IMG/VR virus record: IMGVR_UViG_2778261593_000006
Coordinates: 1-18,695 of that record
Direction: 5' to 3' (one strand)
Origin: a virus
Taxonomy: Duplodnaviria > Heunggongvirae > Uroviricota > Caudoviricetes
DNA length: 18,695 nt
Below are positions 6,001-9,000 of this stretch, in pieces; the stretch's first letter is position 1, and the number at the start of each line of letters is the position of its first letter. A program made the position numbers.

Positions 6001-9000
6001 TTGCCGGTAATTTTATCCAGCATGACTTCCTGAGTATGGAAAGTGATCGTGCGACGAAAGAACAGCTCCAGAAACAGCGCACGAAATTTCACTTTCTGCT
6101 CGGTGTACCCGAGTAACTGACGCGTGGTAAATAACCCCATAATTTATTTTCCTTCAGAAACACAAACGGGCCGCATCGCGACCCGTTTTTCAGTTAATCA
6201 CTTCACCATCAGGCGTGGCTGATGGCACTTCCCACAAATGCGTTGGCTTTTTTCACCGCATCCACCGAACCAGGCCAGACCAGCGACTCAGTGGCAAACG
6301 TACCGCTTTTGTAATACGTCAGCGTGGGTTCTGTTCCGGCAAGCGCCAGAGCCAGCACCCCCACAGCCGTTCCGGCTTTCTGACCATCCCAGACAACCAG
6401 TTTTCCGGTGGCGTCATCCACCATCAGTGGCGTCAGTGCAGGTGTGGCGGCACTGATACCACTGGTGGCTGTTGCGGTATGCGCCGGATCGCTTCCGGCA
6501 AAAATGCGCACATCTGCACGCTTTTCCGTGGTGGTTTTAATCATTTTTTCAGTCTCCTGATTTATCTGAATTCCGGATATCGCTTACGGCATACTCATCA
6601 GCAGGTCTTCCTCCCCGCGCCCGGCAGTTCCGCCACCGGAAACCGCACTGGCAGCATGCTGTGCCATAAAGCGATCAAAAAGTGTTTCCTGTGACGGTTG
6701 CGATGCCGCCGGCGCGGCTGCCAGCAGCGTTTTCGCCTGCGCCACCGTCATTCCTGGCTGTTCTGTCAGTGCCTGTGCAAGTTGCTCGCGCCCTTTCGCC
6801 TCCGGCAGCGCCATAATCTGATCACCGACACTTGCAGAACCCGCAACCGGTGCCGCCGCCAGTAACGTTTTGGCCTGATCAACGGTCATTCCCGGCTGTT
6901 CAGCCAGCGCCTGCGCGAGTTGTTCACGCCCTTTTGCTTCCGGTAACGCCATAATCTGATCGCCTGTGCCTGCAGCACCGGCAGCAGGGGCTGCCGCCAG
7001 AAACGCTTTCGCCTGCTCCACCGTCATCCCCGGTTGACCTGCCAGCATCTGTGCCAGTTGCTCACGCCCCTTTGCTTCCGGCAGCCCCATAATCTGATCA
7101 CCTGTATTTGCTACACTGGCAGCAGGCACAGCAGCCAGGAACGCTTTCGCCTGCTCTACCGTCATTCCAGGCTGACCTGCCAGCATTTGCGCCAGTTGCT
7201 CGCGCCCTTTCGCCTCCTGACAATTCAGGATCCCCATCACGCGCTGATTTTCCTGGGCCACCGCTTCAGCAACGGTGAGATTTTTAACAGTCATTGCATT
7301 CTCCTTCGTAACAGAGTCATTCAGTGCAGAAACCATCACTTCAACGGCATCTGCAGCATTAATCAGTTGATCAGCCAGACCTGCATCAATGCCTGCCTGA
7401 CCGTCATAAACGGCAGCCTCGGTATTCATCACCGCCTCTGAACTCAGCCCCGTATAAAGCGCCACCTTGTCGACAAACATCCGGCGGGCCTCATCAATAC
7501 GGCGCTGAAAATCTGCACGCACACCTGCCGGCAATGCCTGAATACTGTTGCCATCAACCTTGTGCTGCCCGGAGTAAATCAGCGTGATGTCCACCCCTTC
7601 CTGTGCCAGTTGTTTCTCGTAACTGGCGTGCGCCATCATCACGCCAATCGAACCAATTTTTGCCGTCTGCGTGACCAGCCGACGGGTACAGGCTGCCGCC
7701 AGCAACATGGCGGCTGAACAGGCCATGTCATTACACAGCGCCCACACGGGCTTCTGTTCCCGCAGACGGTAAATCATGTCAGCGCAGTCAAACGCCCCGG
7801 CAGCCTGACCGCCCGGGCTGTCGATATCCAGCAAAATGCCGCGCACATCCGGATCATTCACCGCCATCTGAAGGCGGGCCGTCAGGCCGTCATAGCCAGT
7901 CATGCCGGAGTAAGGCCGCAGGGTACCCAGTTTATGCACCAGCGTGCCGCTCACCGGCAGAATGGCGATGCCATTCTTCACCTGGTAACTCTTTGTCGGA
8001 CGCTGACCGCCCGCCATATAGTCAGTCACAGCCAGTTGCATACCATCAGCATCAAGCTGAACAGCCTGCTGAGGAACAGCAAGGCTGCCGGCTCCCATCT
8101 CTTTACCCAGCGCGCAAAAGAAAACCCGCGCATAGGCGGGTTCCAGTAAAAGCGGTTCATTAAATGCCATGGCGGCAATATGCGATAAATTACGACGCAT
8201 CGACTTTTTCTCCCGTTGTCTGTCGGATCTGCTGCTGAAACGTGTCCTTTATCCAGATGGGGCGGGGAAGACCCGCTGCCTGTCGCTCCTGGCTTTCACG
8301 CAGTTGCTGGCGGAAAATCTCCTGATAGTCATCGCCCATCAGGGCCAGCTCTTTCTCGTACGTGCTTAAACCACCTTCAATACGCATCACCGCTTCCTGC
8401 ACTTCCTTAAGGCCATCAATCGCCATGCGACCGGCACCAATCCACTCGGCACGACACCATCCGGAACGGGCCTCCCAGAATGAAAAACGGGATTTCGGCG
8501 GGCGGATCACACCGCGAATAAGAGCTTCCTCCAGCCAGCAGGCAAACATCTGTGATGCCAGCCGGCTGGCCACAAATTTTCGTTTGCCCATAAAATACCG
8601 CCACGACTCATTGGCGGATGCCCTGGCACTGGAATAACTGACCTGTGAATAATCACGGGAAAGCTGTTCATAGGACACCCCCAGTCCGGCAGCGATGTAA
8701 CGTAACAGCGCCTTTTCCAGTTCAGAGAAACCATTATCTGCATTCTGCGCTGTCTGCAGATTCAGTGAATCCCCCGGATAAAGATGCGGAATACGGACCC
8801 CGCCCAGCTTTACCGTATTGGTGGCGTAATAACGCGCGTAGCCTTTCATGATGGTGTTCAGGGGATTTTTACCGCCATCTCCCACCCCGGCGATATATTC
8901 AAATGCTTTTTCCGAATCCAGCGTGGATTCAATCGTCGCGGCATACATCGCCCGCACCACCGCCGACTGCAGTTGCGTGGCCTGCAGCGTGTCGAGCATC

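What the first reader, a model, noticed from the sequence alone, without database searches (positions are those of the whole stretch)
7270..7310. Strong internal ribosome-binding site inside gene C for a nested Nu3-like scaffold protein
AAGGAG with ideal spacing precedes an in-frame ATG at 7294 within the C reading frame, just upstream of the repeat region. This mirrors the lambda arrangement in which Nu3 is produced from an internal in-frame start of C and shares its C-terminus. Two products (538 aa and 236 aa) are therefore predicted from one frame.
Basis: partly seen in the sequence, partly recalled or inferred. Interest (0 to 1): 0.4.

Follow-up and report, generated by a model that had tools for sequence, protein, structure and literature searches.

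The report
Nested scaffold gene inside prophage protease gene
An E. coli prophage head-protease gene contains a conserved internal ribosome-binding site and start codon that should yield a separate 236-residue capsid scaffolding protein, a two-proteins-from-one-frame layout already annotated in phages lambda, 21 and N15, so the finding is correct but ordinary.

Summary
On the minus strand, AAGGAG (7306..7301) lies 6 nt upstream of an ATG (7294..7292). That ATG is in frame with the 538-aa C-like ORF (8200..6584) and gives a 236-aa product with the same C-terminus. The motif alone is not significant: 2 matches in the window against 0.85 expected. Comparison makes the case. In 81 distinct homologous genes, an in-frame ATG sits at the boundary between the S49 protease domain and the scaffold domain. 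It is preceded by a GGAG-type Shine-Dalgarno although the encoded residues differ (KE, QE, GG, KED). In 76 of 81 genes it has the strongest Shine-Dalgarno of about 42 in-frame candidate starts. The site corresponds to phage 21 gene 6 (nested in gene 5, with an annotated RBS) and N15 gene 6. In lambda it corresponds to ATG 5342 (AGGAGG), not the RefSeq nu3 start at 5132. The best reading is a Nu3/gp6-type scaffolding protein made by internal initiation. It has four 46-aa repeats where phage 21 has three. No expression data exist for this prophage. It is a new member of a known kind, of low interest, and is unannotated because gene callers ignore same-frame nested genes.

The parts
6584..8200 (-). 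C-like gene: S49 prohead protease fused to a scaffold domain, 538 aa, 56.1 kDa. Its ATG overlaps the end of the portal gene by 11 nt.
   Evidence: ORF list and translation. Pfam PF01343 E=2.9e-33 and phrog_53 head maturation protease E=5.9e-217. 68% identical to phage 21 gp5 and 57% to lambda gpC. Annotated 'S49 family peptidase' in 99.7%-identical E. coli chromosomes. Mass.
7331..7765 (-). S49 peptidase domain (residues 146-290)
   Evidence: Pfam match 146-290. Aligns to SppA structures 3rst and 4kwb over residues 77-289, E about 1e-16.
7301..7306 (-). Internal Shine-Dalgarno AAGGAG, encoding Lys-Glu of the long product
   Evidence: Sequence. Pairing -8.8 kcal/mol. A GGAG core is kept in relatives with different codons.
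7292..7294 (-). Internal in-frame ATG (Met303 of the long product), proposed start of the scaffold protein
   Evidence: Present at the homologous position in all 81 distinct homologous genes examined. Homologous to the annotated starts of phage 21 gene 6 and N15 gene 6.
6584..7294 (-). Nested Nu3/gp6-like scaffold ORF, 236 aa, 24.0 kDa, pI 4.8, sharing its C-terminus with the protease
   Evidence: Translation. phrog_8399 head scaffolding protein E=4.3e-51 and phrog_8940 capsid assembly protein E=4.2e-43. tblastn hits to phage 21 gp6, Gifsy-1 and N15 gene 6.
6711..7217 (-). Tandem repeat of 138 bp, giving four 46-aa units (...EAKGREQLAQ.LA.QPGMTV.QAK..LAAAP...) inside the scaffold part
   Evidence: TRF period 138, 3.7 copies, 79% matches. 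Protein units start near residues 320, 366, 412 and 458. They correspond to the three 'Tri boxes' of phage 21.
8190..9761 (-). Portal gene (context), immediately upstream and overlapping the C start
   Evidence: phrog_21 portal protein E=5.8e-180. RefSeq annotation of the near-identical locus.
6209..6544 (-). Head decoration gene (context), immediately downstream
   Evidence: phrog_49 head decoration E=1.6e-27. RefSeq annotation.

Best explanation
The window holds the head-gene module of a phage-21-like lambdoid prophage of E. coli, read on the minus strand. One reading frame (8200..6584) most likely yields two proteins. Ribosomes starting at ATG 8200, which overlaps the portal stop, make a 538-aa protein: an S49 serine protease followed by a scaffold domain. 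Ribosomes binding independently at AAGGAG (7306..7301) and starting at ATG 7294 make a 236-aa scaffolding protein identical to the C-terminal 44% of the long protein. This is the counterpart of lambda Nu3 and phage 21 gp6. By analogy with lambda, the free scaffold would be the abundant assembly chaperone for the major capsid protein. The shared scaffold tail would carry a few protease molecules into the procapsid, where the protease would then remove the scaffold. Shown here: the sequence elements, their homology, and their conservation at the nucleotide level. Inferred: that initiation occurs at 7294, the ratio of the two products, and the assembly role.
For: The elements are present and in frame. 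The site has the strongest SD among in-frame internal starts of the gene that would give more than a few residues. The start lies 13 residues after the end of the Pfam S49 domain, at a domain boundary. Phage 21 (74% DNA identity across the site) carries nested gene 6 with an RBS at the aligned position in two independent records. N15 gene 6 is annotated as an 'internal in-frame translational start within gene 5' at the same position. Lambda, phi80 and Gifsy-1 also have GGAGG + ATG there. Across the 13 representative junctions the peptide before the Met varies (TKENA, TQENT, TQEDR, VRGGT, DTGGT, KTGGT, RKEDK, SGGR, LGGT, IGGT), yet each contains an SD and the ATG is invariant. In 76 of 81 distinct homologous genes the junction ATG has the best SD of about 42 in-frame candidates, with median -10.3 kcal/mol. 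The C-terminal part matches the phage scaffold families phrog_8399 and phrog_8940. No minus-strand promoter-like site lies inside the gene, so a separate transcript is not needed or indicated. Literature: genes C and Nu3 overlap in lambda (Shaw and Murialdo 1980, cited in PMC8508860), and Nu3 is the scaffold and C the protease (PMC3224144).
Against: There is no expression, proteomic or ribosome-profiling evidence for this prophage or, as far as I could find, for phage 21 gp6, which is marked 'putative' in M81255. The motif count alone is compatible with chance. Many of the 81 homologues are closely related, so they are not independent observations. One relative (L068) has only a weak SD, -5.8 kcal/mol and rank 4. 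A weak 4-bp hairpin may pair part of the SD. The deposited lambda nu3 coordinates point to a different Met, so the lambda reference annotation does not directly back this exact site.
Confidence: 0.85

Rival explanations
1. Coincidence. AAGGAG is simply the Lys-Glu codon pair and ATG an ordinary internal Met, and only the 538-aa protein is made by translation.
For: AAGGAG-N4-9-ATG is expected 0.85 times in a window of this size and composition, and 2 are seen. Several other SD-like contexts in the window lie inside genes. One example is the GGAGG + ATG four codons before the C stop.
Against: The SD+ATG pair persists at the same boundary in lambda, N15, phi80, phage 21, Gifsy-1 and 80 IMG/VR loci while the encoded residues and the flanking linker change. 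It is the top-ranked in-frame site in 76 of 81 genes.
Confidence: 0.05
2. A scaffold-only polypeptide exists but arises mainly by (auto)proteolytic cleavage of the full-length protease-scaffold fusion, as with P2 gpO. The SD-like sequence would then be irrelevant or only a minor contributor.
For: The long product contains an S49 protease domain whose Ser162 aligns with the serine of the SppA 'MAASGG' segment. That this is the catalytic serine is from my memory of SppA and was not verified here. Single-gene protease/scaffold systems are known in P2 and lambda (PMC8508860).
Against: Cleavage does not explain nucleotide-level retention of an SD and an ATG at 4-7 nt spacing across lineages. From my knowledge of Shaw and Murialdo 1980 (not re-read here), lambda C amber mutants upstream of Nu3 still make Nu3. 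Both routes could coexist.
Confidence: 0.07
3. The nested product starts elsewhere. One candidate is the equivalent of the deposited lambda nu3 start (5132). Others are Met at 7480 (298 aa) or 7429 (281 aa).
For: RefSeq and GenBank lambda place nu3 at 5132, giving 201 aa. Another lambda-derived record uses a GTG giving 233 aa. ATG 7480 and ATG 7429 have modest SD scores of -5.6 and -5.8.
Against: The residue aligned with lambda Met 5132 is Ile in this window and in phage 21. Lambda 5132 itself scores only -2.7 kcal/mol against -10.8 for 5342. Starts at 7480 or 7429 would fall inside the S49 domain.
Confidence: 0.03

Closest known systems
Phage 21 genes 5 and 6 (head-tail preconnector gp5 / scaffold gp6; GenBank M81255 and OL657228)
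   Same: This is the closest relative: 68% protein identity overall and 74% DNA identity across the site. It has the same gene order, portal - protease/scaffold - decoration - major capsid. A nested in-frame gene starts at the aligned Met with an annotated RBS. The scaffold part has the same repeated units, called Tri boxes.
   Different: Phage 21 has three repeat units (gp6 200 aa, gp5 501 aa) and the window has four (236 and 538 aa). In phage 21 the SD is AGAGGAGG encoding Arg-Gly-Gly with a 4-nt spacer. Here it is AAGGAG encoding Lys-Glu with a 6-nt spacer.
Lambda C / Nu3 (protease and scaffolding protein from one frame)
   Same: It shares the S49 protease N-terminal part, the common C-terminus, and the position between B and D. 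A strong SD+ATG (AGGAGG-N4-ATG at 5342) lies at the homologous domain boundary. Overlap of C and Nu3 is established in the literature (references).
   Different: Lambda has one copy of the repeat unit and a ~30-aa insertion after the Met, giving a 131-aa product from 5342. The deposited nu3 coordinates (5132, 201 aa) are at a non-homologous Met without an SD.
N15 genes 5/6 and phi80 gp5/gp6
   Same: The nested 137-aa scaffold gene starts at TTGGAGGAACTATG at the same boundary. N15 gene 6 is explicitly annotated as an internal in-frame start.
   Different: These are lambda-type scaffolds with a single repeat unit and a long Ala/Thr-rich N-terminal extension. Only about 59% identity in the protease part for phi80.
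Other same-frame or fused protease/scaffold arrangements: Mu I/Z, P2 gpO, herpesvirus UL26/UL26.5 (from my knowledge; P2, Mu and lambda single-gene arrangement also stated in PMC8508860)
   Same: The logic is the same: the protease carries the scaffold's capsid-targeting C-terminus, and the scaffold is made in excess from the same frame.
   Different: The protease families are unrelated or only distantly related. P2 gpO uses cleavage rather than an internal start, and herpesviruses use a separate promoter and transcript. No sequence similarity was tested here.

Membership tests
Lambda C/Nu3 - phage 21 gp5/gp6 type nested protease-scaffold gene pair | N-terminal S49 (SppA/ClpP-like) serine protease domain in the long product | tested here: met
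   PF01343 E=2.9e-33 over residues 146-290. phrog_53 E=5.9e-217. SppA structures 3rst and 4kwb E~1e-16.
Lambda C/Nu3 - phage 21 gp5/gp6 type nested protease-scaffold gene pair | In-frame internal start codon with a Shine-Dalgarno at the protease/scaffold boundary | tested here: met
   AAGGAG-N6-ATG at 7306..7292, codon 303, 13 residues after the S49 domain. The position is homologous to the annotated phage 21 and N15 starts.
Lambda C/Nu3 - phage 21 gp5/gp6 type nested protease-scaffold gene pair | C-terminal part homologous to Nu3/gp6 scaffolding proteins | tested here: met
   phrog_8399 head scaffolding protein E=4.3e-51 and phrog_8940 E=4.2e-43. Alignment with phage 21 and lambda, including the ENQRVMGIL...EAKGRE...PGMTV core. 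tblastn.
Lambda C/Nu3 - phage 21 gp5/gp6 type nested protease-scaffold gene pair | Position in the head operon between the portal gene and the decoration and major capsid genes | tested here: met
   Portal 8190..9761, decoration 6209..6544 and major capsid 5112..6140, all on the minus strand. The RefSeq annotation of a 99.7%-identical locus agrees.
Lambda C/Nu3 - phage 21 gp5/gp6 type nested protease-scaffold gene pair | Two polypeptides actually produced, with the small one required for prohead assembly | not testable with these tools
   No expression data are available. The exact 236-aa sequence is absent from a 15-billion-protein collection because gene callers do not call it.
Active S49 protease | Catalytic serine and general base conserved | tested here: inconclusive
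   Ser162 aligns with the serine of the SppA 'MAASGG' segment and is invariant among window, phage 21 and lambda. The identity of the catalytic serine is from memory. The SppA lysine position aligns with Tyr209, while an invariant Lys214 lies 5 residues away, so the base is not assigned.

The most novel reading that the evidence does not exclude
The 46-aa helix-loop-helix unit of the nested scaffold varies from 1 to 5 copies among otherwise similar lambda-type head modules. Within this window's own lineage it occurs as 2, 4 and 5 copies. This copy number might be a tunable valency for binding the major capsid protein, changing assembly kinetics or fidelity, or adapting the scaffold to different capsid proteins, rather than neutral repeat slippage. 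The comparison also implies that the reference lambda nu3 coordinates (5132) mark the wrong start and that 5342 is the functional, conserved one.
Probability: 0.25. Interest if true: 0.35.

Novelty: new member of a known kind. Interest (0 to 1): 0.15.

Why it matters
The main value is for annotation. Automatic pipelines label this gene only 'S49 family peptidase' and omit the essential scaffolding protein, because they cannot call two genes in one frame (PMC9041506). Prophage head modules therefore look as if they lack a scaffold. The comparison gives a simple rule for finding the nested start in this family: the strongest in-frame SD+ATG just after the S49 domain. It also flags inconsistent nu3 coordinates in lambda records. 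It opens no new biological question.

Tried and rejected
1. Motif statistics alone do not separate the site from chance, so I turned to conservation.

2. A local RNA fold around the site gave z = -1.8, with only a weak 4-bp hairpin touching the SD. It is not informative either way.

3. A search for an internal promoter that could give a separate scaffold transcript found none on the minus strand.

4. The antisense ORF 7034..7441 (+) has no PHROG match and is treated as spurious.

5. The CII-box pattern annotated next to the phage 21 gene 6 start is absent here. The only window match is at 1339, and it is expected by chance.

6. Single-sequence AlphaFold2 of the 236-aa product gave low confidence (mean pLDDT 54, pTM 0.21). 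No fold search was run on it.

7. Attempts to read Medina et al. 2010 and 2011, Liu et al. 2013 (lambda ribosome profiling) and Chang et al. 2009 failed because the papers are not held. The experimentally determined lambda Nu3 N-terminus could therefore not be checked.

8. Weak Pfam hits of the repeat region (DUF732, T2SSK, Bac_DNA_binding and others) have no stretch that passes on its own and are dismissed as low-complexity or repeat artefacts.

Full report
**What is in the sequence**

The finding's coordinates refer to the minus strand. The reverse complement of 7270..7330 reads ...TCTGTTACGAAGGAGAATGCAATGACTGTTAAA....
- AAGGAG occupies 7306..7301.
- A 6-nt spacer (AATGCA) follows, then the ATG at 7294..7292.
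- The ATG is in frame with the ORF 8200..6584 (538 aa). It is codon 303 and leaves 236 codons to the stop.
- The calculated masses are 56.1 and 24.0 kDa.

Tandem Repeats Finder reports a 138-bp period in 3.7 copies at 6711..7217. At the protein level these are four 46-aa units.

**Is it more than chance?**

Not on the motif alone.
- AAGGAG-N4-9-ATG occurs twice in the window against 0.85 +/- 0.93 expected. 40 of 200 shuffles give at least 2.
- The other match is at a true-looking gene start (16577).
- With a duplex-energy score against the 16S 3' end, the site (-8.8 kcal/mol) ranks 20th of 1721 start-codon contexts on both strands. Several better-scoring sites are plainly inside genes.

Within the C frame the picture is clearer.
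- Of 49 in-frame internal ATG/GTG/TTG codons it has the best score, apart from one four codons before the stop.
- It scores better than the starts of C (-7.4), D (-7.4) and E (-5.7).

**What the gene is**

The 538-aa product has a Pfam S49 peptidase domain (residues 146-290, E=2.9e-33). It matches the PHROG head maturation protease family (E=5.9e-217). The protease part aligns with solved SppA structures. The C-terminal 236 aa match PHROG families named head scaffolding protein (phrog_8399, profile length 131) and capsid assembly protein (phrog_8940, profile length 201).

The neighbours on the same strand are a portal gene (8190..9761, overlapping the C start by 11 nt), a decoration gene (6209..6544) and a major capsid gene (5112..6140). 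The segment is 99.7% identical to E. coli chromosomes, where PGAP annotates 'phage portal protein | S49 family peptidase | head decoration protein' and no nested CDS.

The exact 538-aa sequence is in public collections as 'S49 family peptidase'. The exact 236-aa sequence is absent from about 15 billion proteins. That fits the statement in PMC9041506 that no gene caller identifies two genes in the same reading frame.

**Related sequences**

The best phage match is phage 21, with 74% DNA identity over a stretch that spans the internal start. The old head-operon record (M81255) and the complete genome (OL657228) agree on three points:
- gene 5 encodes 501 aa;
- a nested in-frame gene 6 encodes 200 aa;
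- gene 6 has its own ribosome-binding site at the position that aligns with 7294.

M81255 additionally annotates three 'Tri boxes' inside gene 6, function unknown.

It starts at TTGGAGGAACTATG at the same boundary. phi80 and Gifsy-1 have the same element. One phi80 record names the product 'gp6; (capsid assembly;137)'.

**Conservation test**

A scan of IMG/VR returned 80 loci. Together with the phage records they give 81 distinct gene sequences.
- In every one, an in-frame ATG precedes the conserved EN(Q/S)R(V/I)MGIL motif.
- The peptide just before that Met varies: TKENA, TQENT, TQEDR, VRGGT, DTGGT, KTGGT, RKEDK, SGGR, LGGT, IGGT.
- The DNA nevertheless always contains an SD core 4-7 nt upstream: AAGGAG, CAGGAG, CAGGAGG, AGAGGAGG, ACAGGAGG, AAAGAGG, TCAGGAGG, TTGGAGG.
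- So the purine-rich element is kept by different codon solutions. That is the signature of selection on the RNA, not on the protein.
- The junction ATG has the strongest SD of about 42 in-frame candidates in 76 of 81 genes. It ranks second in four and fourth in one. The median is -10.3 kcal/mol.
- Many of these genes are close relatives, so the count overstates independence. At least five clearly diverged lineages (window type, 21/Gifsy type, L068, lambda, N15/phi80) agree.

**The lambda comparison needs a correction**

RefSeq and GenBank place nu3 at 5132..5737, giving 201 aa. In the protein alignment that Met corresponds to Ile in both this window and phage 21. Its SD score is only -2.7 kcal/mol.

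The site homologous to 7294 is lambda ATG 5342, preceded by TCAGGAGGGCGA. It scores -10.8, the only strong in-frame internal site in lambda C, and gives 131 aa. Both the 131-aa and the 201-aa versions circulate in databases. A third record uses a GTG giving 233 aa.

I could not read the primary biochemical papers to see which N-terminus was determined. The window therefore mirrors the lambda principle. Genes C and Nu3 overlap (Shaw and Murialdo 1980, cited in PMC8508860), and Nu3 is the scaffold while C is the protease (PMC3224144). The window does not mirror the deposited lambda coordinates.

**How it most likely works**

*Shown:* the sequence elements, their homology and their conservation.

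*Inferred:*
- On the late head-gene transcript, ribosomes coming off the portal gene start C at 8200 and make the protease-scaffold fusion.
- Other ribosomes bind AAGGAG internally and start at 7294, making the free scaffold.
- The two proteins share the scaffold domain. Free scaffold would co-assemble with the major capsid protein, and the same domain would bring a few protease molecules inside the procapsid.
- After assembly the protease would degrade the scaffold.

The relative SD strength of the two starts differs among relatives. The internal site is stronger here and in phage 21, and weaker in lambda. I therefore do not predict the ratio from SD scores.

No minus-strand promoter-like site lies inside C. 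The local RNA fold is unremarkable. A single-sequence AlphaFold2 model is of low confidence (pLDDT 54). It suggests that each repeat is a helix - short loop (QPGMTV) - helix unit joined by flexible Ala/Gly-rich linkers.

**Rivals**

- Pure coincidence is disfavoured by the conservation pattern.
- Production of the small protein solely by proteolysis, as in P2 gpO, cannot explain a conserved SD+ATG, but it may coexist with internal initiation.
- A start elsewhere, at the lambda-5132 equivalent or at 7480 or 7429, is not supported. The first is Ile here, and the others lie inside the protease domain with weak SDs.

**Novelty and verdict**

The arrangement is annotated for lambda, phage 21 and N15. 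This locus is a further member, differing mainly in having four repeat units.

The repeat number ranges from 1 (lambda, N15, phi80) through 2 (L017, L018), 3 (phage 21, Gifsy-1, L068) and 4 (this window and 13 loci) to 5 (L013). Within the window's own lineage 2, 4 and 5 copies occur. That is the only mildly interesting extra.

Interest is low. The practical point is that standard annotation misses the scaffold gene.

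Noticed in passing
window 6711-7217 (-); loci L013, L017, L018, L001, L003, L085-L087: The 46-aa scaffold unit (138 bp) varies in copy number among relatives. There is 1 copy in lambda, N15 and phi80, 2 in L017 and L018, 3 in phage 21 and Gifsy-1, 4 here, and 5 in L013. Within the window's own lineage (same N- and C-terminal flanks) 2, 4 and 5 copies occur, so units have been gained or lost recently. The phage 21 record calls them 'Tri boxes, function unknown'.
   Followed up: partly
L003 (lambda NC_001416) locus 2333 and 2543 = lambda 5132 and 5342; L084: Lambda records disagree on the nu3 start. They give 5132 (201 aa, no SD, Met not conserved), a GTG giving 233 aa in OM418625, or, by homology with N15 and phage 21, 5342 (131 aa, AGGAGG). 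Only 5342 is conserved and SD-backed.
   Followed up: partly
L088 (NZ_AP027634.1) 9101-10717, and 105 E. coli genomes with a full-length match: RefSeq/PGAP annotates only 'S49 family peptidase' with no nested scaffold CDS. The exact 236-aa product is absent from a 15-billion-protein collection.
   Followed up: yes
window 6598-6620 (-): GGGGAGGAAG + in-frame ATG four codons before the C stop scores -10.9 kcal/mol, better than the real candidate. This shows that SD scoring alone gives false positives in this G-rich frame.
   Followed up: no
window 7297-7299 (-): A second ATG, out of frame, lies one nucleotide after AAGGAG (AAGGAGAATGCAATG). The spacing is too short for normal initiation.
   Followed up: no
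L002 2386-2399 and 2620-2633 (phage 21 OL657228): The phage 21 genome record annotates CII-box matches (TTGC-N6-TTGC) on the opposite strand just after the gene 6 start. No equivalent exists in the window's C gene. The single window match, at 1339, is at chance level.
   Followed up: partly
L088 12173-15117: In the closest E. coli genome (PSJ-22), a tail-fibre N-terminal-domain gene directly follows the major capsid gene and chromosomal genes follow soon after. That prophage copy therefore seems to lack a normal tail module. This was not compared with the window's downstream ORFs.
   Followed up: no
window 8190-8200 (-): The C start codon overlaps the end of the portal gene by 11 nt, an arrangement also seen in phage 21 and lambda. 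It suggests translational coupling of the long product to the portal gene.
   Followed up: no
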